Assembly (NCBI GenBank): GCA_946407095.1
Contig: CAMJMR010000001.1
Coordinates: 32,632 to 96,631, forward strand
DNA length: 64,000 nt
From: an uncultured Selenomonadales bacterium
GTDB taxonomy: Bacteria; Bacillota; Negativicutes; Selenomonadales; Selenomonadaceae
Direction of reading: 5' to 3'
In this document: piece after piece, positions 3,934 through 64,000 of the stretch
How positions within the stretch are numbered: the stretch's first letter is position 1
How the letters are laid out: each line of letters opens with the position of its first letter
The notes under the pieces: generated by a model
The model's database searches: none
The model's input: the letters and a program-made list of their open reading frames with translations, nothing else
What the model was told of the DNA's origin: nothing
Position numbers and translations under genes: made by a program

Positions 3934-3976
3934 TTGATAATCACTTCCTGACTAACTGAAATGTTGACGTTACGAA

Positions 3977-4068
3977 GCTAGCAATGCGCAGCGTTGCGTA
4001 TGGACGCGGTGACCAACTTTGAACAGAATAACGTTGGAGCGCGACCGCAGGATGCAACGTCACGTTGC
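3977..4068 (+). repeat. Family-1 palindrome-ended element, copy 1 (subtype a)
   Basis: GCTAGCAATGCGCAGCGTTGCGTATGGACGCGG...GGATGCAACGTCACGTTGC. It aligns with the copies at 31436, 31610 and 46380, and overlaps the last codons of rplE. Confidence 0.8.
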
Positions 4069-4602
4069 GGCGAACGGCATACCCAAGAGCGAGAGGAATT
4101 CACGCGCCTCTTCGTCGGATTTGGCCGTCGTGACGATGATAATATCCATGCCGCGAATTTTTTCGATTTTGTCGTATTCGATTTCGGGGAAGATGAGCTG
4201 TTCCTTGACGCCGATAGCGTAATTGCCTCTGCCGTCGAAGGAATTTCTGCTGACGCCTCTGAAGTCGCGAACGCGCGGCAAGGCAACGTTCATGAACTTG
4301 TCGAGGAATTCATACATACGGCGGCCGCGCAGGGTGACTTTGCAACCGATAGGCATACCGGTGCGGAGTTTCCAGGCGGCAAGGGATTTGCGTGCGCGAG
4401 TGATGACGGGCTTTTGGCCTGCGATAGTGGTCAAGTCGGCAACGGCCGATTCGAGGACTTTGGCATTGCCGACGGCATCGCCGCACGCCATATTGATGAC
4501 GATTTTTTCAAGCTTGGGCACCTGCATGACGTTCTTGTAAGAGAATTTTTGGGTCAAAGCGGGAATAACTTCGGCTTTGTACTTGTCGAGAAGTCTGCTC
4601 AA
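4060..4602 (-). CDS. rplE: 50S ribosomal protein L5
   Basis: 180 aa [23 protein letters not shown].... The last codons and the stop come from the family-1 terminal hairpin. Confidence 0.95.
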
Positions 4603-12367: not shown

Positions 12368-12410
12368 AAAATGAACAACTCCTTAGTTGTAAAAAAATTT
12401 TCTGAGCCTC

Positions 12411-12433
12411 TAATCCCTAGTTCCTAGTTCCTA
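12411..12433. repeat. CTAG-heptamer tandem array (CCTAGTT-type units) that includes the fusA stop codon
   Basis: TAATCCCTAGTTCCTAGTTCCTA. The period-7 TAGs fall in all three frames on both strands. Confidence 0.7.
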
Positions 12434-14524: not shown

Positions 14525-15040
<516 letters not shown>

Positions 15041-22330: not shown

Positions 22331-22361
22331 CTAGTTCCTAGTTCCCAGTTCCTAGTTCCTC
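22331..22361. repeat. CTAG-heptamer tandem array upstream of the ABC ATPase gene
   Basis: ACTAGTTCCTAGTTCCCAGTTCCTAGTTCCT. An inverted single unit AACTAGGAA lies at 22315. Confidence 0.7.
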
Positions 22362-26484: not shown

Positions 26485-28700
26485 TGGAAATAATTGACAA
26501 GATAAAAGATTTTTTCGGCCTCGGTAAGTCTCGCGTCAAAGTGCCGACGATTTTGCAAATGGAGGCGACCGAATGCGGCGCGGCTTCCTTGTCGATGATT
26601 TTGTCTCATTACGGCTTGTGGCTGCCGCTGGAAAAGCTTCGTCAAGAATGCGGCGTCAATCGCGACGGCTCAAAGGCAAGTTGCGTGATTCGGGCGGCTC
26701 GCAATCGCGGGTGCACCGCCAACGGCTATCGCTGGAAGGCCGACCGACTCAAAGAGCTGATGGAGTTCCCGCTGATTATTCACTGGGAATTTAATCACTT
26801 CGTCGTGCTGGAGGGCATTAAGGGCGACACGGTTTATCTGAACGACCCCGCGATGGGCAGGCGCACCGTCAAGTGGGATGATTTCCGCACGTCTTACACG
26901 GGCGTGGCGTTGCACGTCGTCCCCAATGAGGCTTTCAAGCGCGAAGGCGAACGCTACAACATCTTCAAGGACGTGGCAAGGAAACTCGCGAAGGACAAGT
27001 GGGCGGTGCTGTTCATTGTCCTGCTCAACCTCGGCATGATTATTCCGGGGCTCGCCTCGCCGGTCTTCAGCCAAATTTTCCTCGACGACATACTGACCAA
27101 AAAGCATCCCGATTGGATGTTCAACTTCTGCCTGGCAATGACGGTGTCTTGGGTCGTGTGCGGCTTCATGACGTGGCTACAAGCCGTTATCTTGACGCGC
27201 TGGCAACAAAAATTGACGCTCGCCGACTCAAGCAGTTTCTTCTGGCACCTGTTGCGCTTGCCCATGCAGTTTTTCAATCAGCGTTTCGCGGGCGAAGTGG
27301 CGTCGCGCGTCAACTTCAACGAATCAATCGCGGGCGTCTTATCGGGGCCGGCGGCATTGGCGATTCTGAATTTCCTCGTCGCGATTTTTTATTTGCTGTT
27401 GCTGCTCCAATATCACGTGACCTTGACGCTGATAGGCATTTTCTTTTCCAGTATCAACATAATAATTTTCTTCGCCCTGCGCCGACACCTAACCGATATG
27501 AACATGAAAATTCAGCAGGACGCGGGCAAGGAATACGGCACGACCATGAACGGGCTCATGATGATTGAGACGATTAAGGCGAACGGCAACGAGTCCGATT
27601 TCTTCGCGAAGTGGGCGGGCTACCGCGCCAAAGTCCTCAAGGCGGGTCAAGACGTCGCGCTGTGGCAGATGACGGCAACGATTATCCCGACGCTGTTCGG
27701 CGGCATTAACGGCGCGCTGATTATGACAATCGGCGGCTTCTCGATAATGGACGGCGTTTTGACGGCGGGCATGTTCACTGCCTTCCAAAGTTTGATGGGC
27801 AGCTTTCAAGCACCTGTCGGCGCATTGCTCGGCTTAGGCTCGACGCTCCAGACGACCGAAATGCAAATGCAACGCCTCGACGACGTGCGCAAGTATGAAA
27901 TTGACGATTTGAATTGCTGCGATGAAAAACTTCCCGAAGGCAAGCCGATTGAACGCCTCAACGGCGAACTTGAGCTTAAAGATATCGACTTCGGCTACAG
28001 CCCGCTGGAAAAGCCGCTTATCAGCAAATTTTCTCTGCACATTGAGCCGGGGCATTGGGTGGCGGTCGTCGGCGAGAGCGGTTCGGGCAAATCGACCGTC
28101 GCCAAGGTCGTCACGGGCATTTACGAGGAATGGAGCGGCGAAGTTCGTTTCGACGGCGTGATTCGGCGTGAATTGCCCCGCGCTGTTATCGTCAATTCGA
28201 TTTCCGCCGTCGACCAAGACGTTTTCCAAATCACGGGCACGATTGCGCAAAACCTGTCGCTGTTCGACGATTCTGTTCGGCGCACGGACATCATTCAGGC
28301 GGCGAAGGACGCTTGCATTCACGAAGACATTTTGCAACTGGAAAAGGGCTACGATTCGGAAGTGTCGGAAGGCGGCTTGAACTTCAGCGGCGGGCAACGT
28401 CAACGCCTGGAGATAGCTCGCGCCCTTGCCACCAATCCGTCACTGCTTGTCCTGGACGAAGCAACCAGCGCGCTCGACCCCATGACGGAGCAAACCGTTC
28501 TTGAAAACATTCGGCGGCGCGGCTGTTCGTGCTTAATCGTTGCGCACAGACTTTCTACGATTCGCGATTGCGACGAGATTATCGTCTTGCAACACGGACA
28601 AGTCGTCGAACGCGGCACGCATCGCGAAATGATTCAGCACGACGGAGCGTATAAGCGGCTGATTGAGGAACGAAGTCAGGAGAGTGACGCGCTTGAGTAA
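26466..28700 (+). CDS. Bacteriocin export ABC transporter, C39 peptidase/permease/ATPase subunit
   Basis: 744 aa ORF with a C39 domain (QMEATECGAASLSMIL...HFVVLEG), six transmembrane helices, Walker A GESGSGKST and signature FSGGQRQRLEIARAL. Confidence 0.9.
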   Translation: MAKEQMMEIIDKIKDFFGLGKSRVKVPTILQMEATECGAASLSMILSHYGLWLPLEKLRQECGVNRDGSKASCVIRAARNRGCTANGYRWKADRLKELMEFPLIIHWEFNHFVVLEGIKGDTVYLNDPAMGRRTVKWDDFRTSYTGVALHVVPNEAFKREGERYNIFKDVARKLAKDKWAVLFIVLLNLGMIIPGLASPVFSQIFLDDILTKKHPDWMFNFCLAMTVSWVVCGFMTWLQAVILTRWQQKLTLADSSSFFWHLLRLPMQFFNQRFAGEVASRVNFNESIAGVLSGPAALAILNFLVAIFYLLLLLQYHVTLTLIGIFFSSINIIIFFALRRHLTDMNMKIQQDAGKEYGTTMNGLMMIETIKANGNESDFFAKWAGYRAKVLKAGQDVALWQMTATIIPTLFGGINGALIMTIGGFSIMDGVLTAGMFTAFQSLMGSFQAPVGALLGLGSTLQTTEMQMQRLDDVRKYEIDDLNCCDEKLPEGKPIERLNGELELKDIDFGYSPLEKPLISKFSLHIEPGHWVAVVGESGSGKSTVAKVVTGIYEEWSGEVRFDGVIRRELPRAVIVNSISAVDQDVFQITGTIAQNLSLFDDSVRRTDIIQAAKDACIHEDILQLEKGYDSEVSEGGLNFSGGQRQRLEIARALATNPSLLVLDEATSALDPMTEQTVLENIRRRGCSCLIVAHRLSTIRDCDEIIVLQHGQVVERGTHREMIQHDGAYKRLIEERSQESDALE

Positions 28701-31383
28701 AAATTTTTCGCTTAAGGCCGGCGAACGCTTTCGATTGCAGGACGGCGAACGGCTCGCGCTGATTGAGTCGGGCAAGGTCGAAGTCTACGTCGTCACTCGC
28801 GCCGAGGGTTCCTTCCGTCAGCAATTCTTGGTTGAGTTGACGGCGGGGGAGGCGGCTTTCCCGTCGCTTGACGAATTTGAGCAGACCGAAACGCTGATTT
28901 ACGCCGCCGAAGACTCGCAAATAAAAATCCTCACGTTCGACGAAGCAGAGCCCGCCGCGTTGAAAAATTTCATGCGCAACTGGTTCGCCGAGCTGATTAA
29001 GTTGCCGTGGCTGCGCCTGCTTGCCGACAAGGGCGACGACGTTCTAATCACGTGGCTGGACGGCACGGTTCTGGAGGGCGCGGACGATTTGACCGACGCC
29101 TTCCGCGAAAACGAAGAAATTTTTTCAATGCTGTTGGGCGTGCGCTTCCAAGCGGAGGATAAGCGTTTCTCTCAACGCGTCGAAGTCCGCACGCGCAATC
29201 AGCGGCGACTGCTTGACAACTCGATAGCAAACCTCCTCGGCGAAGAAACGACCCAATACAGCGAAACGACCGAACGCGCCGAACTTTTGGAGGAGGCGTC
29301 TTTTATCGTGCGGCGGGCTGCCGTTGCGCTGAACATGCCGACCGACAACATCAAACTCGACCCCGAAATCGTTCGCAAGCTCGACCAAATCAGATTGATT
29401 CGGCGGCTCGTTCAAAAGGGCAACATGCAGATGCGCCTTATCGAACTCGTCGAAGACTGGCATAAAAACGACAGCGGCGTCATAATCGGCTACTACGGCG
29501 AACGAAAGACCCTTGCCGTCTTCGTGCCGACCGCGCCCGACAAATACAAGCTAATCACCAAGGACAAGCCCGAAGGCATCCCGATAACCGACGACGTTGC
29601 CGCGCAGATTGACAGGAGTGCCTTTGAATGCTACGGCGGCTTCCCTGCGCGGGAACTGGGCATTCTCGACCTGATGAAGTTCATTTTCAAGCAGTGCTGG
29701 ATTTCCGACTACAAAACCGTCATCGTTATCAGCCTCGTATCGGGTTTGATTCCGTTGGCAATGCCGCTGGTGACGGAAACGATTTTCGCCGACATAATCC
29801 CGATTCTCGACCGTCAAGGGCTCGCGACCGTCACGCAGGTCATCATGGTCACAAGCTTCACGACGGCGTCATTGGGCATCGTCCGCACGATAGCCGTCAT
29901 GCGAATCACAACGCGCATGAACATGGCGACGGAGGCGGCTCTTTGGGGACGACTGCTCACCTTGCCGACGAAATTTTTCCGCCGGTTCACCTCCGGCGAA
30001 TTGGCAAGCCGCATGAACGGTATCAGCGTCATCAAAGGGCTCGTCAGCGCAGATTTTATCGGCGGGCTGTTCGGCTTCGTCTTCAGCTTCTGGAGCATCT
30101 TTTTGATGTGCTACTACAGCCTCAAGCTCACTGCGGTGGCGGTGGTTATCTGGTTCGTCTACGCGATTGTCACGGCGTTCATCTATCGGCGCGTCATAAA
30201 CTTTCAGCGCAGCCTTATCGCCGCCAACAACAAGGAGGCGGGCATTGTCCAACAGATTTTCAAAGGGCTTGCCAAGTTCCGCGAACACGGCGCGGAGAAT
30301 CAAGCTTACTGGTTGTGGAGCGGCGTCTTCGGCGAAACGTGGAAATGGAACTTGAAACTGCGCTGGCAAAGCAACTACAACATGATTATCGGCAGCGTTC
30401 AGCCGTTTATCTTGACGATGGCACTTTACTATATCGCGGTCTACGGCATTAACGAGGTCGGCCCCAACGGGCAAATGGTTCAAGGCATAACCTACGCGCA
30501 GTTCATTGCGTTCCAAGGAGCCTTCTCAAGCTTCAACGCCACGCTGAACGGGATTGTTCCGCTTGTCGGTCAATACTTCGCGATTCAGCCGCACATTGAA
30601 AACTTGCGCCCGATACTCAAGGAAGTGCCCGAAAGCGTCGGCGAAAAGGCGGACGCGGGCATTTTGAGTGGCGCGATTGAACTCAACGGCGTGACGTTCG
30701 CCTACAACGAGGGGCATGACGTTTTGCACGAAGTCAGCTTCAAGATAGCGGCGGGCGAGAACGTTGCGATAGTCGGGCGGTCGGGTTGCGGCAAGTCGAC
30801 GCTTGTAAGGTTGCTTTTGGGTTTCGAGACGCCGCGCAAGGGCTCAATCTACTTCGACGGTCAAGACTTGGCTGAACTCAACTTGCCGAGCGTCAGAACT
30901 CAAATGGGCGTCGTGTTGCAAAACGGTCAGCTCATGCAAGGCGACATCTTCACGAACATAATCGGCACCAACGCCTTGACGCAGGAGGACGCATGGCAGG
31001 CGGCCGAGGCGGCGGGCATTGCGGCTGATATCGCGATGATGCCCATGGGTATGCAAACCGTCATCAGCGAGGGCTCAACCAATATCAGCGGCGGACAACG
31101 GCAAAGGATTTTGATAGCCCGCGCCCTGGTTACCAAACCGTCAATCCTAATCTTCGACGAGGCGACCAGCGCGCTTGACAACCGAACTCAAGCCATCGTC
31201 ACAAAGAGCCTGGACAGCCTCAACGCCACGCGAATAATCGTTGCCCACCGCTTGTCGACGATTCGCAACTGCGACAGGATTTTGGTCATGGACGCGGGCA
31301 GGATTGTCGAGAACGGCACCTTCGACGATTTGGTTGCGCAAGGCGGGATTTTTGCTAACTTGGTCAAACGTCAGACGGCTTAA
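28684..31383 (+). CDS. Bacteriocin export ABC transporter, permease/ATPase subunit with an N-terminal cNMP-binding-like domain
   Basis: About 900 aa, with Walker A GRSGCGKST and signature ISGGQRQRILIARAL. The GTG at 28684 is preceded by AGGAGA. The track ORF begins at TTG 28663. Confidence 0.88.
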   Translation: MTRLSKNFSLKAGERFRLQDGERLALIESGKVEVYVVTRAEGSFRQQFLVELTAGEAAFPSLDEFEQTETLIYAAEDSQIKILTFDEAEPAALKNFMRNWFAELIKLPWLRLLADKGDDVLITWLDGTVLEGADDLTDAFRENEEIFSMLLGVRFQAEDKRFSQRVEVRTRNQRRLLDNSIANLLGEETTQYSETTERAELLEEASFIVRRAAVALNMPTDNIKLDPEIVRKLDQIRLIRRLVQKGNMQMRLIELVEDWHKNDSGVIIGYYGERKTLAVFVPTAPDKYKLITKDKPEGIPITDDVAAQIDRSAFECYGGFPARELGILDLMKFIFKQCWISDYKTVIVISLVSGLIPLAMPLVTETIFADIIPILDRQGLATVTQVIMVTSFTTASLGIVRTIAVMRITTRMNMATEAALWGRLLTLPTKFFRRFTSGELASRMNGISVIKGLVSADFIGGLFGFVFSFWSIFLMCYYSLKLTAVAVVIWFVYAIVTAFIYRRVINFQRSLIAANNKEAGIVQQIFKGLAKFREHGAENQAYWLWSGVFGETWKWNLKLRWQSNYNMIIGSVQPFILTMALYYIAVYGINEVGPNGQMVQGITYAQFIAFQGAFSSFNATLNGIVPLVGQYFAIQPHIENLRPILKEVPESVGEKADAGILSGAIELNGVTFAYNEGHDVLHEVSFKIAAGENVAIVGRSGCGKSTLVRLLLGFETPRKGSIYFDGQDLAELNLPSVRTQMGVVLQNGQLMQGDIFTNIIGTNALTQEDAWQAAEAAGIAADIAMMPMGMQTVISEGSTNISGGQRQRILIARALVTKPSILIFDEATSALDNRTQAIVTKSLDSLNATRIIVAHRLSTIRNCDRILVMDAGRIVENGTFDDLVAQGGIFANLVKRQTA

Positions 31384-31435
31384 GGGGGATTTGGCATGAA
31401 GAATTTTTTGACGACCTTAAGCGCGGCGATTGAGT

Positions 31436-31528
31436 GGGCTAGCAATGCGCAGCGTTGCGTTTTGACGCGGCGAATACGTTTGAATCATGAGCGACACGGC
31501 GCGCTATCCGGATGCAACGTCACGTTGC
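31436..31528 (+). repeat. Family-1 element, copy 2 (subtype a)
   Basis: GGGCTAGCAATGCGCAGCGTTGCGTTTTGACGCGGCGAATACGTTTGAATCATGAGCGACACGGCGCGCTATCCGGATGCAACGTCACGTTGC. Confidence 0.85.
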
Positions 31529-31609
31529 CGAACTTAGTCAAGCGTCAGACGGCTTAAGGGGGATTTGGCATGAAGAATTTTTTGACGACCTTAAGCGCGG
31601 CGATTGAGT

Positions 31610-31702
31610 GGGCTAGCAATGCGCAGCGTTGCGTTTTGACGCGGCGAATACGTTTGAATCATGAGCGACACGGCGCGCTATCCGGATGCAACGTCACGTT
31701 GC
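31610..31702 (+). repeat. Family-1 element, copy 3 (identical to copy 2)
   Basis: Identical sequence, 174 nt downstream of copy 2. Confidence 0.85.
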
Positions 31703-31744
31703 CGAACTTAGTCAAGCGTCAGACGGCTTAAGGAGTGATTCGTT

Positions 31745-33250
31745 ATGAAAAAATTTTTGGCGGCTTTAGCGACAGCGGCGTTACTTTTTCCGAACACGAC
31801 TCAAGCCGCCGAAGGCGTGAGTTTGACGCTTGACGACGCGATTGAACTTGCGCTGAAGAACAACCGCCTAATCGAGCAGTCGACGGCGGACAGGGAGGCA
31901 GCCAAGTGGAATTTGTCAGCCGTGCGCCGCAATGCGGGTCCCATACTCAGCTGGTCTTCGTCGTTAAACCATATCGGCGGCAGATTTTATCGCAGAAACT
32001 ATCGCAACATCAGGGACGATGTCAAAGCGCGAAATGCGGAGTACAGAGCGACTTACGGCTACGAGCCCTACAACATGAATCTTTACCCGAATTACAATTA
32101 CGAAGGCACGCACAGCTTGACGTTGCGAATGCCGGTGTACACGGGCGGGCGTCTTGAGAATCAGCGGGAGTCAGCGCGCTACACTCTGAACGCTGCCGAT
32201 TTGACGCTTGAAAATTCTCGTCAGCAAGTCAAGTACCAAGCGGCGGCGGCTTACTATCGCGTCCTTCAGCAAGAAAGTTTGGTCGGCGTGCAGGAGCAGG
32301 CGGTTCGGCTTTTGCAAGAGCACTTGCGCATGGTTTCCACCCAATACGAAGTCGGCACCGTCGCCAAGTCGGATGTGCTTGCCACCAACGTTCAGCTTGC
32401 CAACAGCCAACAGAGCTTGACCACCGCGCAGGGCAATTATCAAACCGCCGTCGCGCAACTCAACAACGTTTTGGGTTTGCCCGTCGACACCGAAATTGCC
32501 GCGAGCGATAAGATTAATTTCGTCAAATACGGCTTGAGCGAGGCTGATTGCCTTGACTACGCCTTGAGCCACCGCCCCGACGGAATTGCCGCCGTTTACG
32601 CCGCCAAGCGAGCCGGAGCTGATGTTTCCGCCGCAAAGAGCGGTTTTCGCCCGAATGTTTCGGCTATCGTGCAAGGAATAGCCACGGGCGAAAGTTACTT
32701 CAAAGCAGACCATCGAAGCGAACGTTTGTCGGTCGGCGTCGAGATGACTTGGAATATTTTCGACAACGGCATTACCTCCGCGCAGGTTCAGCAATACAAG
32801 GCCGTCGAGCGCAGAGCCGAGTCGGTCGCCCGCCAACAGATTGAAACGATTCAGCTTGAAGTGCACAGCGCGTATATCGCCTTGAAGACCGCCGAGAAAA
32901 ATATCGAGACGACAGCCGCCGCCGTCGACAAGGCGGAGGAGGAATTCGCCATCGCGCAAGTCCGCTACGTCGAGGGCGTCGACACCAACTTGAACGTCAT
33001 GAACGCGCAGGAAAAGGTCGTCGAGACGCGCAACAACTACTACGCCGCCGTTTACAACTACAACACGAGCCGCGCGCAACTGGAAAAGGCAATGGGCGTT
33101 CCCGTCGCGATTGACGCGTTGCTTTACGCCGAAGCGGAACAGGAAGGCAAATCGTCGCCGAAGTCCTTGGAGGCGGCCGCCGTCAATCAAAATGATTCGT
33201 CGGAGGCTGAAGTCGTCAAAGAATCGCCCGCGCCCTTCGACAAGCAATGA
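31745..33250 (+). CDS. TolC-family outer-membrane efflux protein
   Basis: 501 aa ORF with a signal peptide MKKFLAALATAALLFPNTTQA and two repeated TolC halves (...LTLDDAIELALKNNRLIEQ...). Confidence 0.9.
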   Translation: MKKFLAALATAALLFPNTTQAAEGVSLTLDDAIELALKNNRLIEQSTADREAAKWNLSAVRRNAGPILSWSSSLNHIGGRFYRRNYRNIRDDVKARNAEYRATYGYEPYNMNLYPNYNYEGTHSLTLRMPVYTGGRLENQRESARYTLNAADLTLENSRQQVKYQAAAAYYRVLQQESLVGVQEQAVRLLQEHLRMVSTQYEVGTVAKSDVLATNVQLANSQQSLTTAQGNYQTAVAQLNNVLGLPVDTEIAASDKINFVKYGLSEADCLDYALSHRPDGIAAVYAAKRAGADVSAAKSGFRPNVSAIVQGIATGESYFKADHRSERLSVGVEMTWNIFDNGITSAQVQQYKAVERRAESVARQQIETIQLEVHSAYIALKTAEKNIETTAAAVDKAEEEFAIAQVRYVEGVDTNLNVMNAQEKVVETRNNYYAAVYNYNTSRAQLEKAMGVPVAIDALLYAEAEQEGKSSPKSLEAAAVNQNDSSEAEVVKESPAPFDKQ

Positions 33251-33546
33251 CGGGCGGACTCCTTTCGTTTGCTAAGCAAAAGGGCGCAAAGACAGCTCGG
33301 CTTGACATTCGCGGCGTGTCTCTTCGATTCAACGTTTGAATGATTTTTATGTTTAGGATCTACTTTCTTTCACTGGCGAAAGAAAGTAGCAAAGAAAGCC
33401 ACCACTGCGCGTGGGGCGGATACCGACCACCGCCGCAACGTTCGCGTCCCAGTCAGCCACTCGTGCCGCTGTCGACGCATCACGCGTCGAAGTCGCGGCG
33501 GCCGCCCGTCCATGGGCGGCCTCGTCCTCTGCAACGTATCACTGCA
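33251..33546 (+). repeat. Family-2 structured element, long form (copy b); candidate ncRNA
   Basis: Starts directly after the tolC stop. The segment 33361-33501 is identical to 53139-53279. Confidence 0.8.
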
Positions 33547-44228: not shown

Positions 44229-44287
44229 ATAATCGCAATGGTGGCGGGCGCGTCCCTTCAATTCGTCATTCGATTAAATTTATTTTT

Positions 44288-45687: not shown

Positions 45688-46371
45688 TTGCTTGACGAAA
45701 AAAAAGTTGCGTTCATAACGTGCGTGAACAGCGATTGGTGGTACAGCGAGTGCCGCCTTTACCTGGAGCACTTGACGATACCCGACGGCATGACGGCCGA
45801 GTTTATCGACGTGCGCGACGCAAAATCCATGACGGCGGGCTACAACCGCGCAATGAAAAATTCCGACGCCAAGTACAAAATTTATCTGCACCAAGACACT
45901 TTCGTCGTCAACAAGAATCTTATCGCCGACTTGCTGAAAATTTTTCGCGACGAGACAATCGGTGTCGTGGGAGTGATTGGTTGCATGAACTTGCCCGCGA
46001 CGGGCGTTTGGTGGGACGGCTTGAGGACTTACGGGCGCGTGCTTCATGCTTGCGAGCCCGAAAGTGTCGTCGATTCGCATTGCGACGAACCCGAAGGCGA
46101 TTATCAGGAAGTCGAATCGGTTGACGGTTTATTTTTGGCGACGCAGTACGATTTGCCGTGGCGCGAAGATTTGTTCGACGGTTGGCATCTTTACGACACA
46201 TCGCTCTGCAAGGAAATGAGCCGAGCCGGTTATCGGGTTGTCGTGCCGAATCAGTCGGCGGATTTTTGGTGCATACACTGCCCGAAGGAAAAACCGCTTG
46301 ACCCGCGCTATCGCCGCTACCAAAAAATTTTCCTTGCCGAATACGGCGACGAACTTAATCCCGAAGTTTAA
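45688..46371 (+). CDS. Glycosyltransferase-like protein (GT2-like fold)
   Basis: 227 aa ORF ...VAFITCVNSDWWYSECRLYLEHL...YNRAMKNSDAKYKIYLHQD...VDGLFLATQ... Confidence 0.7.
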   Translation: MLDEKKVAFITCVNSDWWYSECRLYLEHLTIPDGMTAEFIDVRDAKSMTAGYNRAMKNSDAKYKIYLHQDTFVVNKNLIADLLKIFRDETIGVVGVIGCMNLPATGVWWDGLRTYGRVLHACEPESVVDSHCDEPEGDYQEVESVDGLFLATQYDLPWREDLFDGWHLYDTSLCKEMSRAGYRVVVPNQSADFWCIHCPKEKPLDPRYRRYQKIFLAEYGDELNPEV

Positions 46372-46379
46372 AAGTTGGT

Positions 46380-46473
46380 GGGCTAGAAATGCGCATGCAT
46401 TTCGTATCGGCGCGGCGATACCGTTTGAATTACGGAAGCTAAGGCGCGCTATCAGGATGCAACGTCACGTTGC
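46380..46473 (+). repeat. Family-1 element, copy 4 (subtype a, diverged 5' arm)
   Basis: GGGCTAGAAATGCGCATGCATTTCGTATCGGCGCGGCGATACCGTTTGAATTACGG...GCGCGCTATCAGGATGCAACGTCACGTTGC. Confidence 0.8.
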
Positions 46474-46568
46474 CGCCGCTACCAAAAAATTTTCCTTGCC
46501 GAATACGGCGACGAACTCAATCCGGAGGTGTAAAGTGGAAGACATCAAACCGAGCTTGAGCCGCTTTA

Positions 46569-46663
46569 AAAGCGGCGAAACATATAACGCGTTTAAGCGT
46601 CCGGTAACTTCAGCCAGTCGCCGCGCATAAAATTTATCAACGAACTTTATTGGGAGGTTTGAC
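46569..46663 (-). repeat. Family-1 element, copy 5 (subtype b, diverged or truncated)
   Basis: The plus strand reads CCGCTTTAAAAGCGGCGAAACA...GTCGCCGCGCATAAAAT.... It aligns with 59846 and 63517. Confidence 0.6.
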
Positions 46664-47548
46664 GTGGAAGACATTAAACCGAGCTTGACCGAATTCATTT
46701 ACGGCGAAGATTTTTGGCAAAGAATTTTGGTCGTCGAGAGCGCAGATTATCTTGCCGAGTTGCGCGAGCGGTTCCCGACGGATGAAATTTTTTTTGTCAC
46801 TACGAACGAGGATTTTCATTCCGACGGCGTGAAAACTTTCGTGCTTGACTATCGCGAGGAGCGACTGCCCTTCGACGAAGAATTTTTCGACGCGATTATC
46901 GGAGACTTGACGCTTGAGGTCGTGACTAACCCGCAAGACATAGCGGCGGGCTTTTCGACGTTCATTAAGCAGACGGGCTGTTGGCTGACGAGTTTCCGCA
47001 ACCTTCGCCATTGGAAGGTCATCGAAAAGCTGATGCGCGGCGTTTCGGGAGGAATAGTTTCGCGGCTGTACACGCGCACCGAATTCGAGCGGTTGCTTTA
47101 CGCGTCGTTCTATAAGGAAGTGCAACTGTTGCCGCTGAAAAAAAACGCGCCGCCCGAACTTTTGGCGCGGCTTATCGATTGCGGCTTCGACAACTTCGAC
47201 GACGACTTGCAGACAGAATTTTGGCTGGTAAGAGCGGCGCGCTCAATGCCGGAACTTGCGCTGTTGAAGTCAATGTTCACGCCCGACATCCGCGCAGAGC
47301 TGTCGCGCCTCCTTCACCGCATCGAATACGACGTTGCAACCGAGGACAGCGTTCAAAAGTTTTGGCGGCTATTCGACGCACAGGGTCTTTTCACGGACTA
47401 CGCGGCGGCGTTCATTCGGTCGGTCGTCGTGCACCGCGAACATTTTTGGCGCAACATGAAAATTTTTTCCGCCCGCGCAGAGCTTGACGCGATAATCGAC
47501 GAGGCGGAATCAATGTACGACTTCGATACGGGTAATCGTCTGCTGTGA
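46664..47548 (+). CDS. Hypothetical protein (weak class-I methyltransferase-like features)
   Basis: 294 aa ORF from GTG 46664, preceded by GGGAGG. No strong motif recognised. Confidence 0.6.
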   Translation: MEDIKPSLTEFIYGEDFWQRILVVESADYLAELRERFPTDEIFFVTTNEDFHSDGVKTFVLDYREERLPFDEEFFDAIIGDLTLEVVTNPQDIAAGFSTFIKQTGCWLTSFRNLRHWKVIEKLMRGVSGGIVSRLYTRTEFERLLYASFYKEVQLLPLKKNAPPELLARLIDCGFDNFDDDLQTEFWLVRAARSMPELALLKSMFTPDIRAELSRLLHRIEYDVATEDSVQKFWRLFDAQGLFTDYAAAFIRSVVVHREHFWRNMKIFSARAELDAIIDEAESMYDFDTGNRLL

Positions 47549-55966: not shown

Positions 55967-56156
55967 CTCAATCGCTCCTTTGATTTTGGTCGACGGAAAA
56001 TTTCTACAGGCGGCGGCGTTTTTCCTGCAGAGGGCTTGCGGTTGAAATTGCGCTGGCATTGAACTATAATCAATCGGATTATCTAGGGGCAGTTGGTAAC
56101 GTCAAACAGTGACGGTTCTTTTTTCGCCTGACGAAAGTTGTCGCGCGCTCGCCGGT

Positions 56157-56250
56157 CGCTTTAAAAGCGACGGAACAGCAAGGGCGCGGCGATTCCCTTA
56201 AGTCATCGACGAGTTTCAACGCGCTATCTGGGTCAAGCTTCAAGCTTGCG
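56157..56250 (+). repeat. Family-1-related element, copy 6 (mosaic: subtype-b hairpin at the 5' end, subtype-a-like hairpin at the 3' end)
   Basis: GTCGCTTTAAAAGCGACGGAACAGCAAGGGCGCGGCGA...GCGCTATCTGGGTCAAGCTTCAAGCTTGC. The 3' hairpin covaries with GCAACGTCACGTTGC. Confidence 0.6.
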
Positions 56251-56328
56251 CCTCGTCATACGAAAAAATTCCTCGTCACATCCCGATTTTGAATTACCAA
56301 CACACCCTAAGCAAGGAGGATTCTTTCA

Positions 56329-56778: not shown

Positions 56779-58944
56779 ATGTTTAGAAAATTTTTTAAGG
56801 CATTGAGCGGGAAGAAAGAATCGCGCCGACAGCGACAGGAAACCGACATTGAGCGCGAAATTTCCGCGATTTACGCCATCCTCGTCGAAGTCATGGGCTC
56901 CGACAGATTGGTTTTGCAGGCGGGCAAGATGGACGCCCTCCGCTACATGCGCTCGAATGACCCCGCCGAACGCGTCCTTGCCCTGCGCAGAATCCTTGAG
57001 GAAAATCCTACGCTCGCGCCGCCGCCCAAGCCCAACGAACTTAAAGAACAAGTCATGGCTCTTTCGGAGCTGATAGCCGACATCATGGCGCGTCGACAGG
57101 TTGAAGACAAAATTGAACGCAAGATTAACGAGAAGCTTGAAAAGGAACATCAAGACTACGTCAAGGATATTCGTATGCAAGTTTTGCGCGAAGAGAACAA
57201 TTCCGAATCGCCGCACGACCAAAAGAAGCGCGAAGACCTTCAAGCCCTCGAAGACATTCACTTGACGCAATCGGTTATGGAATTGCTTAGGCCGAAGACG
57301 CTTGAAGAAATCGTCGGGCAGGGACGCGCCGTCAAGTCGTTGCGCTCAAAGCTTGCGTCGCCCTACCCGCAACATCTGATTTTGTACGGCCCGCCGGGCG
57401 TCGGCAAAACCACGGCGGCGCGGCTGATATTGGAGGCGGTGCGCGGCACAGAACTAAGTCCCTTCGGCGAAAATGCGCCCTTCGTGGAAACGGACGGCAC
57501 GACCCTCCGCTGGGACCCGCGTGACGTGACGAATCCGCTTTTGGGCTCGGTGCACGATCCGATTTATCAGGGCGCGCAACGTCAGCTTGCCGACAGCGGC
57601 GTCCCCGAACCGAAACCCGGTCTTGTCACGGACGCGCACGGCGGCATCCTGTTCATCGACGAAATCGGCGAAATGGATATCATGTTGCAGAACAAGCTGC
57701 TGAAAGTCTTGGAGGACAAGCGAGTTTTCTTCGAGTCGAGCTACTACGACCCTGCCGACGAAAAAGTTCCGCCTTACGTCAAAATGCTGTTCGAGAACGG
57801 TGCGCCCGCCGACTTCGTGCTTATCGGTGCCACGACCCGCGAACCTTCCGCGCTCAATCCCGCATTGCGTTCGCGTTGTGCAGAAATTTACTTCGAGCCG
57901 TTGACGCCCGCTCATATCGTCGAAATCGTCAACAACGCCGCGCAGAAGCTCAACGTCGAGCTTGAGGACGGGCTTGCCGAAACAATCAGCGAATACACGA
58001 TTGAAGGGCGCAAGGCGATTAACATTCTTGCCGACGCCTACAGCTTGGCTCTTGACCGCGCCGAGGAAAAAGTTTTGCACATCGACCGCCCCGTCAAAAT
58101 CGAAATGCGCGACGTGTACGAAGTGGCGCAAGTTAGCCGGCTTTATCAATACGTCACGCGCAAGGCGTCGAGCAAGGCGGCAGTCGGGCACATCTTCGGG
58201 CTGGGCGTCAGCGGCTTTATCGGCTCCGTCATCGAGATTGAGGCTGTCGTCTTCGCGGCGGAAAAGGGCAAGGGCACGATTCGCTTCAACGAGACGGCGG
58301 GCTCCATGGCGAAGGATTCGGTCTTCAATGCGGCGAGCGTCCTGCGCGGCGTGACGGGCAAAGACATTCACGACTTCGACGTGCACATAAACGTTATCGG
58401 CGGCGGCAACATCGACGGACCGAGCGCGGGCACGGCGATTTTGGCGGCGTTGGTCAGTGCAGTCACGGGCAAGCGCATTCGGCAAGACGTGGCTGTTACG
58501 GGCGAAATTTCCTTGCAGGGCAAAGTTCGGCCTGTCGGCGGCGTCTTCGAGAAGGCTTACGGCGCAAAGCAGGCGGGCATTAAGACGTTGGTTATCCCGA
58601 AGGAAAACGCCAAAGACATTCCGAAAGGACACTTGGGCTTGAAGATATTCGCAGTCGAGACGGCGGAGGAGGCTTTCAAAAAAATTTTCGCGGACGCGGT
58701 TGAATTCGTCGGCAAGCAAACGGTTTCGTTGGACAAAGACGAACAAACAGCTTTGACACCCACGCCATCGTCGAAAGACGAACAGATAAAAAAAAGCAAC
58801 GTGACGTTGCACCCAGATAGCGCGCTGAAAGATTGCGCCGACATTGATTCGACCCCCGCGTCGTCGTCGAAAGACGAACAGATAAAAAAAATTTCCTCAA
58901 CGACTGTGACGTCGGAGGAATTGGAAATGCTTACGAGCGATTGA
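56779..58944 (+). CDS. Lon-family ATP-dependent protease (LonC/LonB-like) with a repeat-derived C-terminal tail
   Basis: 721 aa ORF with Walker A GPPGVGKTT and a Lon protease Ser motif DGPSAGTAILAALVS. The tail after about residue 650 contains duplicated SSKDEQIKK and an embedded family-1 fragment. Confidence 0.88.
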   Translation: MFRKFFKALSGKKESRRQRQETDIEREISAIYAILVEVMGSDRLVLQAGKMDALRYMRSNDPAERVLALRRILEENPTLAPPPKPNELKEQVMALSELIADIMARRQVEDKIERKINEKLEKEHQDYVKDIRMQVLREENNSESPHDQKKREDLQALEDIHLTQSVMELLRPKTLEEIVGQGRAVKSLRSKLASPYPQHLILYGPPGVGKTTAARLILEAVRGTELSPFGENAPFVETDGTTLRWDPRDVTNPLLGSVHDPIYQGAQRQLADSGVPEPKPGLVTDAHGGILFIDEIGEMDIMLQNKLLKVLEDKRVFFESSYYDPADEKVPPYVKMLFENGAPADFVLIGATTREPSALNPALRSRCAEIYFEPLTPAHIVEIVNNAAQKLNVELEDGLAETISEYTIEGRKAINILADAYSLALDRAEEKVLHIDRPVKIEMRDVYEVAQVSRLYQYVTRKASSKAAVGHIFGLGVSGFIGSVIEIEAVVFAAEKGKGTIRFNETAGSMAKDSVFNAASVLRGVTGKDIHDFDVHINVIGGGNIDGPSAGTAILAALVSAVTGKRIRQDVAVTGEISLQGKVRPVGGVFEKAYGAKQAGIKTLVIPKENAKDIPKGHLGLKIFAVETAEEAFKKIFADAVEFVGKQTVSLDKDEQTALTPTPSSKDEQIKKSNVTLHPDSALKDCADIDSTPASSSKDEQIKKISSTTVTSEELEMLTSD
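58796..58860 (-). repeat. Family-1 element fragment, copy 7, inside the Lon-like ORF
   Basis: The plus strand reads GCAACGTGACGTTGCACCCAGATAGCGCGC.... It is flanked by 28-bp direct repeats at 58768-58795 and 58864-58891. Confidence 0.75.
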
Positions 58945-59791: not shown

Positions 59792-59840
59792 CCGTTATTC
59801 TCCGATAAATTTTTCTTGCCGACCTTCGACTCAAGCCGCC

Positions 59841-59943
59841 GCCGCCCGCTTTAAAAGCGGGGGAACAGTTAGCGCGTTGCAACTGACGACAAAGGAAACG
59901 TTATCGCCGCGTTCATACGCAACGCCGGCGCATTGCTAGCCCG
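59841..59943 (-). repeat. Family-1 element, copy 8 (subtype b)
   Basis: The plus strand reads GCCGCCCGCTTTAAAAGCGGGGGAACAGTTAGCGCGTTGCAACTGACG...GCCGCGTTCATACGCAACGCCGGCGCATTGCTAGCCC. Confidence 0.8.
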
Positions 59944-59960
59944 ATAAAATGGTTGGATTC

Positions 59961-63324: not shown

Positions 63325-63515
63325 GAGCCCGCACCTCCCACAAAAAATTTTGTCGATTATAACACAGCGCACAAAAAAAATCTGCCGCTTGTAAGTGACA
63401 GATTAAATTTTTTAAAATTACGAAGTGCTCTTTAGCATTTATCAAAAACGATTCGTAACTTTAGGAGAATGGAAGATGAACTTATCGGCTGAAAACATTT
63501 CGGTGACGCTCGGCG

Positions 63516-63597
63516 CCCGCTTTAAAAGCGGGGGAACAGCGGACGCGCCTCAACGTTTCACTGCTTAAAGTTGGTCGCCCGCGTCCATACGCATTGC
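63516..63597 (-). repeat. Family-1 element, copy 9 (subtype b)
   Basis: The plus strand reads CCCGCTTTAAAAGCGGGGGAACAGCGGACGCGCC...GTCGCCCGCGTCCATACGCATTGC. It is flanked by direct repeats of about 65 bp. Confidence 0.8.
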
Positions 63598-63623
63598 TTC
63601 GTAACTTTAGGAGGGATTGAAAG

Positions 63624-64000
63624 ATGAACTTATCGGCTGAAAATATTTCGGTGACGCTCGGCGGCAAAGAGATTTTGCGCGATTTGAATTACGAATTCCC
63701 TTCGGGCAAGCGCACGGCGATAATCGGCGCGAACGGCGCGGGCAAGTCCACTTTGCTGAAGGTGCTTTGCCTGCTCAACGAAAATTTTTCGGGACGCGTG
63801 ACGCTCGACGGGCAAGACATTCGCGCACTCGGCAGAAAAAATTTGGCAAAGGTAATGGCAATCTTGCCGCAAGAACGCGACGCGCCGCAAGATACGACCG
63901 TCAAGCAGTTGGTTTCATTTGGACGCTTTCCGCACAGAAAATTTTTCAGCGGCACCTCGAAGGAGGACGACGCGGCTGTTCAAAACGCCTTGGCACTCAC
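63624..64000 (+). CDS. ABC transporter ATP-binding protein (iron-siderophore/cobalamin FecE/FepC-like), 5' part
   Basis: MNLSAENISVTLGGKEILRDLNYEFPSGKRTAIIGANGAGKSTLLK.... Runs off the window end. Confidence 0.85.
   Translation, partial: MNLSAENISVTLGGKEILRDLNYEFPSGKRTAIIGANGAGKSTLLKVLCLLNENFSGRVTLDGQDIRALGRKNLAKVMAILPQERDAPQDTTVKQLVSFGRFPHRKFFSGTSKEDDAAVQNALAL

What the first reader, a model, noticed from the sequence alone, without database searches (positions are those of the whole stretch)
31357..31744. 174-bp tandem duplication between the ABC exporter and tolC creates a chain of chimeric relay ORFs
Seen directly:
- Each unit carries the last 27 nt of the ABC gene (NLVKRQTA*), a Shine-Dalgarno-like AAGGGGGA, an ATG with a tolC-like start (MKNFLTTLSAA versus the real MKKFLAALATAA), and a family-1 element.
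- This yields two identical 53-aa ORFs at 31396-31557 and 31570-31731: MKNFLTTLSAAIEWASNAQRCVLTRRIRLNHERHGALSGCNVTLPNLVKRQTA.
- Each ORF starts 12 nt after the previous stop and ends with the ABC gene's own C-terminal octapeptide.
- The real tolC ATG follows 13 nt after the last stop.
- The ABC-end copies differ from the functional end only by TTG/TTA and AAA/AAG, both synonymous.
- The SD and signal-peptide part is much more diverged and includes non-synonymous changes.

Inference. The arrangement would preserve stop-to-start translational coupling from the exporter to tolC across two inserted elements. Alternatively it is simply the by-product of insertion followed by unequal crossing-over.
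Basis: partly seen in the sequence, partly recalled or inferred. Interest (0 to 1): 0.75.

Follow-up and report, generated by a model that had tools for sequence, protein, structure and literature searches.

The report
Mobile hairpin repeat duplicating a gene junction
The 174-bp tandem repeat is two copies of a small hairpin-ended mobile repeat that duplicated the stop-to-start junction between an ABC exporter gene and tolC when it inserted, so each copy carries a short reading frame that may pass ribosomes on to tolC; I found no published description of this repeat family, which makes unusually long target duplications and shares an end motif across bacterial phyla and phages.

Summary
There are 2.3 copies of a 174-bp unit, two identical 53-aa ORFs, and 12/12/13-nt stop-to-start gaps.

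**What each unit is.** It is not a plain duplication. Each unit is a ~95-nt non-coding repeat ending in GGATGCAACGTCACGTTGC, plus an ~80-nt duplication of its target: the ABC 3' end, the Shine-Dalgarno (SD) spacer and the first ~12 tolC codons.

**Long flank duplications are typical of the family.**
- The window holds nine copies; seven (counting the two here) are bracketed by clear duplications of 29-69 nt.
- Among the copies with full flanks in fetched bacterial and viral loci and the window, 34 of 174 have such repeats, against 0.18% of random positions.
- The 3' end of the element is fixed. The 5' end varies and shows microhomology.

**Relatives.** Eight related TolC lineages have an empty junction. 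The closest relative has one 174-nt unit with a different element tail. A third lineage has a 138-nt unit.

**Second unit.** In the window it most likely arose by unequal crossing-over between the 29-nt ABC-end repeats.

**Relay ORFs.** They are an automatic by-product of a duplication that spans stop, SD and start. However, all three filled lineages keep an open, in-frame relay through three different inner sequences (about 0.1-0.2 each by chance). That mildly supports selection for continued translation into tolC. The insertion enzyme is unknown.

The parts
28663..31383 (+). ABC exporter gene (906 aa); its last 29 nt form the left copy of the target duplication
   Evidence: ORF list; Pfam ABC_membrane + ABC_tran
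31357..31385 (+). A1: the functional ABC 3' end, first copy of the 29-nt direct repeat (AACTTGGTCAAACGTCAGACGGCTTAAGG)
   Evidence: D15
31386..31431 (+). Pseudo-junction 1: SD spacer GGGATTTGGC plus a 36-nt copy of a tolC start (ATGAAGAATTTTTTGACGACCTTAAGCGCGGCGATT). This is the right-hand part of the old target duplication and ends in the 9-nt microhomology GCGGCGATT.
   Evidence: L177's real tolC start is of the same TTL type
31396..31557 (+). Relay ORF 1 (53 aa): pseudo-tolC start, then element read-through, then the duplicated ABC C-terminal octapeptide and stop
   Evidence: no Pfam family or homologue
31429..31532 (+). Family-1a element, copy 1 (5' hairpin GCAATGC-GCA-GCGTTGC, CGCGG box, GCGCG box, terminal motif)
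   Evidence: nhmmer E=8e-24; family alignment
31510..31528 (+). Terminal motif GGATGCAACGTCACGTTGC (7-1-7 palindrome). The duplicated flank starts immediately after it.
31531..31559 (+). A2: second copy of the ABC end (TTA, AAG variants)
   Evidence: D15
31560..31605 (+). Pseudo-junction 2, identical to pseudo-junction 1
31570..31731 (+). Relay ORF 2 (53 aa), identical to relay ORF 1
31603..31706 (+). Family-1a element, copy 2 (identical to copy 1)
31684..31702 (+). Terminal motif of copy 2
31705..31733 (+). A3: third copy of the ABC end, identical to A2; its stop codon lies 13 nt before the real tolC ATG
   Evidence: D15
31732..31744 (+). Native SD spacer GGAGTGATTCGTT, the same as in empty-site relatives
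31745..33250 (+). tolC-like outer-membrane factor gene (501 aa)
   Evidence: Pfam OEP; homologues named TolC family, Selenomonadaceae
3967..4072 (+). Family copy (1a) with no clear flanking repeat
46312..46534 (+). Family copy 1a (46372-46479) bracketed by a 61-nt duplication of the glycosyltransferase gene's 3' end (46312-46372 and 46474-46534). All 4 differences between the copies are synonymous.
   Evidence: (D13)
46511..46708 (-). Family copy 1b (46557-46650, minus strand) bracketed by a ~69-nt duplication that spans the stop of the upstream gene and the GTG start of the next gene
   Evidence: (D12)
56148..56254 (+). Composite family copy with terminal palindrome CAAGCTT-C-AAGCTTG (1c). 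The orthologous site in L009 carries a 1a element.
58755..58891 (-). 5'-short family copy (58796-58850, minus strand) with a 41-nt flank duplication. It is inserted in frame (96 nt, 32 codons) in the C-terminal tail of a Lon-like protease gene.
59808..60000 (-). Family copy 1b (59843-59950, minus strand) bracketed by 38-nt direct repeats (95% identical)
   Evidence: (D7)
63455..63661 (-). Family copy 1b (63513-63598, minus strand) bracketed by a ~60-nt duplication of SD + ATG + 13 codons. The pseudo-start ORF stops inside the element.

Best explanation
**What the repeat is.** It consists of two tandem copies of one insertion unit. Each unit is a ~95-nt non-coding, non-autonomous repeat element plus a long duplication of its target. 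The element has a 5' hairpin, conserved CGCGG and GCGCG boxes 36 nt apart, and a terminal 7-1-7 palindrome preceded by GGAT.

**How it arose (inferred).** In an ancestor of this Selenomonadaceae lineage an element inserted about 36 nt into tolC.
- Its invariant 3' end was joined to a point inside the last 30-70 nt of the ABC gene.
- Its 5' side was joined at a 9-nt microhomology (GCGGCGATT) shared by tolC and the element.
- Everything between those two points was duplicated: the ABC end, its stop, the SD spacer and the tolC start.
- Later events replaced the element body in different lineages.
- In this genome, unequal crossing-over or slippage between the 29-nt ABC-end repeats added a second, identical unit.

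**Why relay ORFs exist.** The duplication spans stop, SD and start. Each unit therefore automatically has a start 12 nt after a stop and a stop 13 nt before the next start.

**What they probably do (inferred, less certain).** Alleles in which the frame through the element stays open are the ones retained. Ribosomes translating the relay ORFs would keep the 174-348 nt insert covered and deliver termination next to the tolC SD. That would preserve coupling and avoid polarity or occlusion of the tolC start.

**Mobility of the family (inferred).** It is most consistent with a 3'-end-anchored, copy-in mechanism at staggered or nicked targets. The enzyme acts in trans and is not identified.
For: **Shown**
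- Anatomy and identity of the units.
- Nine family copies in the window. Seven of them, counting the two here, are bracketed by clear duplications of 29-69 nt of the local sequence; 56148 has only a degenerate match and 3967 none.
- The 19-mer occurs in at least 118 genome stretches from several phyla and in 46 viral contigs.
- 34 of 174 motif copies have a direct repeat starting within 3 nt of the motif end, against 0.18% of 5000 control positions.
- Element length between the repeats is 32-143 nt with a fixed 3' end.
- Eight related TolC lineages have an empty junction of 12-16 nt.
- L119 (97% TolC identity) has one 174-nt unit. L129 has a 138-nt unit with a called 41-aa ORF.
- The pseudo-start matches a real tolC allele type, and the junction lies at GCGGCGATT.
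- The region contains no promoter-like or terminator-like site.
- The relay frame is open and in frame in three lineages with three different inner sequences. The chance per event is about 0.08, 0.17 and 0.11.

**Weak support**
- The predicted fold pairs the pseudo-start with the tolC SD/AUG region, but the z-score is only -1.39.
Against: - No expression data exist. tolC has its own good SD (GGAG, 9 nt from the ATG), so it may not need coupling.
- Relay ORFs are not a family-wide feature. At 46.5 kb, at 63.5 kb and in L034, L093 and L101 the pseudo-start ORF stops inside the element.
- The three filled lineages share one ancestral left junction, so they are not fully independent trials.
- L119 and the window have exactly the same 174-nt unit length although their inner 97 nt are unrelated. 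My history does not explain this.
- The two-unit state rests on a single assembly.
- No partner enzyme was found: there is no shared neighbouring ORF and no Y1 transposase nearby.
- The non-functional repeat copies differ from the functional ones almost only at synonymous sites (33:3). A simple duplicate-then-decay model does not predict that.
Confidence: 0.7

Rival explanations
1. The origin is the same (element insertion with a long target duplication, then unequal crossing-over), but the relay ORFs are neutral debris. tolC is translated from its own SD, and the open frames persist by chance and shared ancestry.
For: - tolC keeps a canonical SD and spacing.
- Pseudo-start ORFs at other insertions of the family end inside the element.
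- The three filled alleles share one left junction.
- The chance of an open in-frame relay is about 0.1-0.2 per event, which is not negligible.
- The fold z-score is not significant.
Against: - Three different inner sequences (1a full length, 1b, 1a short) are all open and in frame.
- The joint chance is about 0.002 if the events are independent and about 0.01-0.02 if only two are.
- The SD and ATG of the pseudo-start are intact in lineages that are only about 80-85% identical at the nucleotide level.
Confidence: 0.4
2. The flanking repeats are not target-site duplications made at insertion. They are junctions where DNA from a diverged strain was joined at the element, or the repeats are continually overwritten by homologous recombination with alleles from strains lacking the insertion.
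For: - The non-functional copies differ from the functional ones almost only synonymously. The counts (synonymous:non-synonymous) are: ABC end in L129 10:0, L119 5:1, window 2:0; window glycosyltransferase end 4:0; L044 4:0; L042 2:0; L045 2:0; L011 3:1; L112 1:1.
- About 44% synonymous would be expected if one copy drifted freely (my estimate).
- The spacer types are swapped between L129 and the window.
Against: - Many repeats are 95-100% identical, as expected for fresh duplications.
- Empty sites contain exactly one copy.
- There is no discontinuity in relatedness between the ABC and tolC sides.
- Recombination-dominated divergence after a true duplication explains the synonymous bias without abandoning target duplication.
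Confidence: 0.2
3. The second unit is an assembly artefact, and the genome has a single 174-nt unit.
For: The two units are identical apart from the first ABC end, and the closest relative's contig has one unit.
Against: Assemblers normally collapse rather than expand tandem repeats. Tandem arrays of element plus flank occur in several other genomes: L012, L015, L023, L095, L101. The first and second ABC-end copies differ at two positions, which anchors distinct copies.
Confidence: 0.08
4. The 53-aa product is itself a functional small protein, for example a mimic of the exporter's C-terminus.
For: The C-terminal NLVKRQTA is conserved at the amino-acid level in all three lineages despite synonymous change.
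Against: - The middle of the peptide is unrelated in the three lineages.
- It has no homologue and no family.
- The same synonymous-only pattern is seen in duplicated gene ends that lie in no ORF, such as window 46474-46534.
Confidence: 0.03

Closest known systems
Bacterial MITEs and other small dispersed repeats (Correia/NEMIS, ERIC, RUP, BOX) - from general knowledge
   Same: Short (~100 nt), non-coding, multi-copy and non-autonomous. They sit at gene boundaries and inside operons, and can be co-transcribed and alter expression of the neighbouring genes.
   Different: MITEs have terminal inverted repeats and short target duplications of fixed length. Here there are no terminal inverted repeats, only the 3' end is fixed, and the flank duplications are 13-120 nt and variable.
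REP/BIME/REPIN elements with RAYT (Y1 HUH) transposases (PMC3733652, PMC3333891)
   Same: A short palindrome preceded by a conserved tetranucleotide tag (GGAT here, GTAG or CGTC there). They are preferentially located just after genes, and different palindrome variants coexist in one genome.
   Different: That paper does not mention duplication, target site or direct repeats for REPs. REP families are usually lineage-specific, whereas this 19-mer is identical across phyla and in phages. No Y1 transposase was seen nearby.
IS1634/IS1549-type insertion sequences (IS4 family) - recalled from memory, not checked here
   Same: They are reported to generate unusually long direct repeats of variable length (tens to hundreds of bp).
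   Different: They are kilobase-sized, encode a DDE transposase and have two inverted ends. None of this is present here.
SINE/LINE target-primed reverse transcription in eukaryotes - general knowledge
   Same: An invariant 3' end, variable 5' truncation, microhomology at the 5' junction, target duplications of variable length, and mobilisation in trans.
   Different: There is no evidence of an RNA intermediate, a poly(A) tail or a reverse transcriptase. The duplications here are longer. No bacterial precedent is known to me.
Rep (HUH)-mediated integration of adeno-associated virus at AAVS1 - recalled from memory
   Same: One junction is fixed next to a hairpin/nick site. Replication with template switching produces partial duplication of the target and head-to-tail arrays.
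   Different: That is a eukaryotic virus with its own Rep protein. Here no Rep is linked to the element. The motif occurs in two divergent Microviridae contigs that encode a Rep, but only as part of a shared non-coding module.
Rickettsia palindromic elements - general knowledge
   Same: Small palindromic repeats that insert in frame into protein-coding genes and are translated, as with the copy inside the Lon-like gene here.
   Different: No long target duplication is described for them, and they belong to a different lineage with a different sequence.
Translational coupling by termination-reinitiation in operons - general knowledge
   Same: A stop codon lies within about 13 nt of the next SD/ATG, and translating ribosomes keep the downstream start accessible.
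   Different: Here coupling would pass through one or two inserted, otherwise meaningless ORFs created by a mobile element.

Membership tests
MITE (miniature inverted-repeat transposable element) | Terminal inverted repeats at both ends | tested here: not met
   Inverted-repeat search of three copies finds only the internal 7-1-7 palindrome and the 5' hairpin, with no end-to-end inverted repeat
MITE (miniature inverted-repeat transposable element) | Short target-site duplication of fixed length | tested here: not met
   Flank repeats are 13-120 nt and variable
MITE (miniature inverted-repeat transposable element) | Related autonomous IS with the same ends | tested here: not met
   No protein cluster recurs at a consistent position or orientation next to 137 motif copies
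REP/REPIN-RAYT | 20-40-nt imperfect palindrome with a conserved 5' tetranucleotide | tested here: inconclusive
   The terminal 15-nt palindrome is preceded by GGAT/GGGT, but it is only the tail of a ~95-nt element and the tag is not GTAG or CGTC (PMC3733652)
REP/REPIN-RAYT | Cognate RAYT (Y1 HUH) gene in the genome, flanked by the repeats | tested here: inconclusive
   tblastn with an IS608 TnpA sequence written from memory found nothing in the window or the loci fetched up to then (L001-L175). Whole genomes were not available.
IS200/IS605-derived PATE | Left- and right-end subterminal hairpins; insertion 3' of a fixed tetra- or pentanucleotide without target duplication | tested here: not met
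   Long flank duplications are present and the 5' end is variable
Non-LTR/SINE-like retroelement (TPRT) | Fixed 3' end, 5' truncation and a variable target duplication | tested here: met
   9-nt microhomology at the 5' junction of the tolC insertion
Non-LTR/SINE-like retroelement (TPRT) | RNA intermediate and a partner reverse transcriptase | not testable with these tools
   No transcript or cDNA data are available, and no reverse transcriptase gene is linked
Integron attC / gene cassette | R''/R' core sites RYYYAAC ... GTTRRRY | tested here: not met
   By inspection the element ends GTTGCCG / GTTGCTT, which is not GTTRRRY
CRISPR array | Identical repeats separated by unique spacers | tested here: not met
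   In the arrays the flank part and the element part are both repeated; for example the L012 and L095 units are identical
Described RNA families (Rfam 15) | Match to a curated covariance model | tested here: not met
   No hit at gathering thresholds in the whole window and none at E<=10 in 31300-31800
Translationally coupled operon junction | Stop codon within a few nt of the downstream SD/start; both genes on the same strand in one operon | tested here: met
   12/12/13-nt gaps, with the SD overlapping or adjoining each stop; empty-site relatives have the same 12-16-nt junction
Translationally coupled operon junction | Downstream translation depends on upstream translation | not testable with these tools
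   This needs reporter fusions or ribosome profiling

The most novel reading that the evidence does not exclude
The family-1 repeat may belong to an undescribed class of ultra-small, protein-less mobile elements. Members would be defined by a variable hairpin plus an invariant terminal hairpin (GGATGCAACGTCACGTTGC). The class would be shared by Selenomonadaceae, Clostridia, Fusobacteria, Verrucomicrobiota, Planctomycetota and phages, including Microviridae. Members would insert by a 3'-anchored copy-in mechanism, either nick-and-join with template switching or target-primed synthesis. That mechanism would generate target duplications tens of nucleotides long. Because such duplications regenerate gene ends and starts, the elements could colonise operon junctions. 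There they would create translated relay ORFs that selection then maintains.
Probability: 0.3. Interest if true: 0.85.

Novelty: new variant of a known kind. Interest (0 to 1): 0.65.

Why it matters
**Annotation.** Duplicated gene ends, pseudo-starts and small chimeric ORFs at operon junctions in these genomes are footprints of one repeat family. They should not be called as genes or read as gene fusions.

**Mobile-element biology.** A protein-less element with a fixed hairpin end, a variable 5' end and 13-120-nt target duplications does not fit any bacterial transposition scheme I could match. The identical 19-mer is also found across phyla and in phages. Identifying the enzyme that acts on it could reveal a new insertion mechanism.

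**Gene expression.** The exporter-tolC junction is a natural experiment. It asks whether ribosome relay through inserted ORFs is needed to keep a downstream gene expressed, and alleles with 0, 1 and 2 units are available for comparison.

Tried and rejected
**Known RNA or published element**
- Rfam scan of the whole window and a permissive scan of the locus: nothing.
- Exact-sequence search of the paper library for the palindrome as DNA or RNA, on both strands: no paper.
- Four keyword searches for long or variable target duplications in small bacterial elements: nothing relevant. The REP paper does not mention duplications.
- BLAST of the element against the reference plasmid and phage collections: only chance-level hits or none.

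**Partner enzyme**
- Clustering all ORFs within 4 kb of 137 copies found no recurrent neighbour.
- tblastn with a recalled IS608 TnpA sequence found nothing.

**RNA structure**
- The element does not fold better than shuffled sequence on either strand (z -0.08 and +1.14).
- RNAalifold on 18 Selenomonadales copies shows invariant boxes but no covariation.
- Across 175 copies, a hairpin ending 3-8 nt before the motif is modestly enriched (58% against 36%; MFE p=0.004).

**Locus look-ups**
- The exact TolC sequence is not on record.
- A metagenome scan with the junction 20-mer found only two contigs; both are the contigs that carry P0007, and one is the source of the empty-site locus L121.

**Method and ideas dropped**
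- My automated synonymous/non-synonymous count was confounded by spurious open frames. I replaced it with counts in verified gene frames.
- Rejected as explanations: CRISPR array, integron attC, intrinsic terminator or promoter in the unit, and a DGR template/variable repeat pair (the differences are not adenine-specific).


Full report
**1. The observation**

- Tandem Repeats Finder gives 31357-31759, period 174, 2.3 copies, 96% matches.
- Units 31357-31530 and 31531-31704 differ only at TTG/TTA and AAA/AAG.
- Two identical 53-aa ORFs (31396-31557 and 31570-31731) lie between the ABC gene (28663-31383) and tolC (31745-33250). The gaps are 12, 12 and 13 nt.
- Pfam confirms the operon: HlyD-like, C39-peptidase ABC, a second ABC, then OEP/TolC. 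The 53-aa ORF matches no family and has no database homologue.
- TolC homologues are all from Selenomonadaceae, mostly rumen or gut metagenomes.

**2. What a unit is made of**

The inner ~95 nt of each unit is a dispersed repeat.
- Its last 19 nt, GGATGCAACGTCACGTTGC, are a 7-1-7 palindrome preceded by GGAT. They occur 6 times in the window against 0.02 expected.
- An nhmmer profile finds nine family copies in 64 kb.
- Aligned copies share four features:
  - a 5' hairpin (GCAATGC-GCA-GCGTTGC; other copies have GAAATGC/GCATTTC or GCAAGCC/GGCTTGC);
  - an invariant CGCGG box;
  - a GCGCG box 36 nt downstream of it, with a variable stretch between them;
  - a terminal palindrome.
- The terminal palindrome comes in three versions within this one window: 1a GCAACGT-C-ACGTTGC, 1b CCCGCTTT-TAAAGCGGG and 1c CAAGCTT-C-AAGCTTG.
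- There are no terminal inverted repeats, no Rfam match, and no promoter-like or terminator-like site inside the unit.

**3. Long flank duplications are the family's signature**

At six other places in the window the element is bracketed by a direct repeat of the local sequence.

| Element position | Flank repeat | Content of the repeat |
|---|---|---|
| 46372-46479 | 61 nt (46312-46372 / 46474-46534) | 3' end of a glycosyltransferase gene |
| 46557-46650 (minus) | ~69 nt (46511-46579 / 46640-46708) | a stop and the next GTG start |
| 58796-58850 (minus) | 41 nt | inside a Lon-like gene; 96 nt in total, in frame |
| 59843-59950 (minus) | 38 nt | intergenic |
| 63513-63598 (minus) | ~60 nt | SD + ATG + 13 codons |
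| 56148-56254 | degenerate | see section 8 |

They come from Selenomonadaceae/Quinella, many Clostridia, Fusobacteriaceae, Verrucomicrobiota, Planctomycetota and others. Isolate genomes are included, for example Propionigenium maris DSM 9537, so the motif is not an artefact of metagenome binning. Forty-six viral contigs also carry it.

In every case the 19-mer is the 3' end of a variable element.
- Among the 174 copies with full flanks, 34 have a repeat (score 15 or more) that starts within 3 nt of the motif's end and matches sequence upstream of the element. Only 0.18% of 5000 random positions do.
- The repeats are 13-120 nt long.
- The element between them is 32-143 nt, always with the same 3' end.
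- The 5' side is therefore variable. Where it can be resolved it sits at microhomology: L034, and the tolC site below.
- Head-to-tail arrays of flank plus element occur in L012, L015, L023, L095 and L101.
- The repeats often contain a stop codon and/or an SD and start. Long duplications let the element land near gene boundaries without destroying either gene.

**4. The exporter-tolC junction in relatives**

- Eight TolC lineages, 81-85% identical to the window's TolC, have an empty junction: ABC stop, a 12-16-nt SD spacer, then the tolC ATG. They are L120, L121/L122, L123, L126, L176, L177, L178 and L179.
- L119, the closest relative (TolC 97% identical; about 95% nucleotide identity on both sides), has exactly one 174-nt unit.
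  - It shares the left part with the window: the spacer, the pseudo-start and GCGGCGATTGA.
  - It then continues with a 1b-type tail and a longer copy of the ABC end (69 nt).
- L129, a third clade, has a 138-nt unit with a short 1a element. The gene caller annotated its 41-aa ORF.
- The pseudo-start (MKNFLTTLSAAI) is a true copy of a tolC allele. The empty-site relative L177 begins MKKFLTTLATAAIL, and the duplication ends at GCGGCGATT. That 9-mer is shared by tolC and the element's CGCGGCGATTGAC box.

From this I infer one old insertion with a ~85-110-nt target duplication. I also infer later replacement of the element body and right junction in different lineages, and loss by recombination between the repeats (or absence) in the empty lineages.

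The two units in the window are identical, and A2 equals A3. The simplest origin of the second unit is therefore unequal crossing-over or slippage within CGTCAGACGGCTTAAGG, the identical 17 nt that end the 29-nt ABC-end repeat (inference).

**5. The relay ORFs**

Because the duplication spans stop, SD and start, the stop-to-start spacing is reproduced automatically. ABC and tolC are in the same frame. The only extra requirement is that the element keeps the frame and contains no stop.
- The chance of that is about 0.08 for the window, 0.17 for L119 and 0.11 for L129.
- All three filled lineages satisfy it, with unrelated inner peptides. They also keep the pseudo-start SD and ATG despite only 80-85% nucleotide identity between clades.
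- This is moderate evidence that alleles permitting continuous translation are the ones that persist.
- A predicted fold pairs the pseudo-start with the tolC SD/AUG region, but it is not better than shuffled sequence (z -1.39).

Against a general role: pseudo-start ORFs at other insertions stop inside the element. This holds for window 46.5 kb and 63.5 kb and for L034, L093 and L101. tolC also has its own good SD. The function is therefore plausible but unproven.

**6. An unexpected pattern: synonymous-only divergence**

The supposedly non-functional repeat copies differ from the functional ones almost only at synonymous sites. Counting codon differences in verified gene frames:

| Repeat pair | Synonymous : non-synonymous |
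|---|---|
| L129 ABC end | 10:0 |
| L119 ABC end | 5:1 (the one change is in the functional copy's lineage) |
| window ABC end | 2:0 |
| window glycosyltransferase end | 4:0 |
| L044 | 4:0 |
| L042 | 2:0 |
| L045 | 2:0 |
| L011 | 3:1 |
| L112 | 1:1 |
| Total | 33:3 |

If one copy drifted freely I estimate about 44% synonymous. The pattern also occurs where the copy lies in no ORF (46474-46534), so translation of relay ORFs cannot be the general cause.

The explanation I favour is inference. Most differences would be imported by homologous recombination from diverged functional alleles, so each repeat copy is overwritten together with its adjoining gene. I could not test this.

**7. How the family moves**

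No protein is encoded, and no protein family recurs next to the copies. The features are:
- an invariant hairpin 3' end joined precisely to the start of the duplication, which usually begins with C, CG or CC;
- a variable 5' end with microhomology;
- long, variable duplications;
- arrays;
- different element variants at the same site. Window 56.1 kb has 1c where L009 has 1a, and the exporter-tolC site carries three variants.

These fit a 3'-anchored copy-in process. Two models match.
- Nick-and-join by a hairpin-recognising enzyme, followed by replication and template switching. This would resemble Rep-mediated AAV integration, which I recall from memory.
- Target-primed synthesis of the SINE type.

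The data do not decide between them. Across phyla, a variable hairpin ending 3-8 nt before the motif is enriched (58% against 36% of controls). The palindrome arms also change symmetrically between variants. Both point to a folded single strand or a symmetric binding site.

Two Microviridae lineages whose capsids are only 24% identical share a non-coding module containing the motif: roughly 130 nt upstream of it, by inspection about 90% identical, and about 30 nt beyond it. The module therefore moves between phages too.

**8. Comparison with known systems, and novelty**

- The element fails the defining tests for MITEs (no terminal inverted repeats, no fixed short duplication), PATEs, attC sites and CRISPR arrays.
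- It resembles REPs in having a tagged palindrome.
- It resembles SINEs and AAV integration in its junction anatomy.
- I found no description of it in the searchable literature, and nothing in Rfam or in the reference plasmid and phage collections. That library is incomplete.

I file the finding as a new variant of a known kind: a small non-autonomous repeat reshaping an operon junction. There is a real chance, about 0.3, that the family represents a new insertion mechanism.

**9. Unexplained**

- L119 and the window have the same 174-nt unit length although their inner 97 nt are unrelated.
- The spacer types are swapped between the left and right junctions in L129 relative to the window.
- The cause of the synonymous-only divergence is not established.
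- The enzyme is unknown.

Noticed in passing
window 33260-33535, 53076-53313, 10789-11078 (inverted), 44279-44351; L127 1-88, L128 1-87: A second dispersed repeat family ('family 2', with the hairpin CTACTTTCTTTC...GAAAGAAAGTAG) lies just downstream of tolC and at three other places in the window. In another lineage (P0008) the contig ends in a copy of it immediately upstream of tolC, in place of the ABC gene.
   Followed up: partly
window 56779-58944 (insertion at 58755-58891): A 5'-short family-1a copy plus its 41-nt flank duplication is inserted in frame (96 nt, 32 codons; SSKDEQIKK is repeated) in the C-terminal tail of a Lon-like protease, so the element is translated on its reverse strand.
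   Followed up: partly
window 46312-46534; L042, L044, L045, L011, L112; L119 1230-1472; L129 350-521: Duplicated gene ends that should be non-functional differ from the functional copy almost only at synonymous sites (33 synonymous against 3 non-synonymous codon differences). Recombination with diverged functional alleles is my guess, and it is untested.
   Followed up: partly
L119 1297-1470 compared with window 31384-31557: The closest relative's single unit is exactly 174 nt, like the window's, although the inner 97 nt are unrelated (a 1b tail plus a 69-nt ABC copy, against a full 1a element plus a 29-nt copy). This is unexplained.
   Followed up: no
L137, L147, L149, L159, L165 (one lineage) and L168 (another): Two Microviridae lineages (Phage_F capsid plus REP_ORF2-G2P; capsids 24% identical) share a non-coding intergenic module of roughly 130 nt upstream of the 19-mer (by inspection about 90% identical) plus about 30 nt beyond it. 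It could be an exchanged origin-like cassette or an insertion of the element.
   Followed up: partly
window 56060-56330 compared with L009 470-720: At an orthologous intergenic site in two Selenomonadales genomes the resident element has the same CGCGGCGATT box but a different terminal palindrome (CAAGCTT-C-AAGCTTG against GCAACGT-C-ACGTTGC). The two arms change symmetrically.
   Followed up: partly
L003 ~1445-1470, L091, L088: Directly after the motif, some copies carry short tandem reiterations of its 3' half (TCACGTTGC repeated two or three times). This suggests slippage or repeated processing at this end.
   Followed up: no
L023 7496-7760: A three-unit array has the same 22-nt flank in each unit, but the third unit has a different central variable region. 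It looks like either repeated insertion at one site or cassette-like replacement of the centre.
   Followed up: no
window 15012-15041, 22331-22360, 35475-35501, 12402-12432: Short heptamer tandem repeats (CTAGTTC x4.3 twice; GTTCCTT x3.9) recur at several places in the window.
   Followed up: no
window 59843-59870, 63513-63540 (1b terminal hairpin): The 1b end GTTCCCCCGC-TTTTAAA-GCGGG looks superficially like the stem of type I-E CRISPR repeats (GTTCCCCGCGCCAGCGGGG, recalled from memory). This is probably a coincidence.
   Followed up: no
L024, L033, L048, L063, L105 (Propionigenium maris DSM 9537); L085, L087: In Fusobacteriaceae the motif ends a conserved ~85-nt element that follows gene terminators and is itself followed by a T-run. 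There it could act as a small transcription unit or terminator. No flank duplications were seen in this clade.
   Followed up: no
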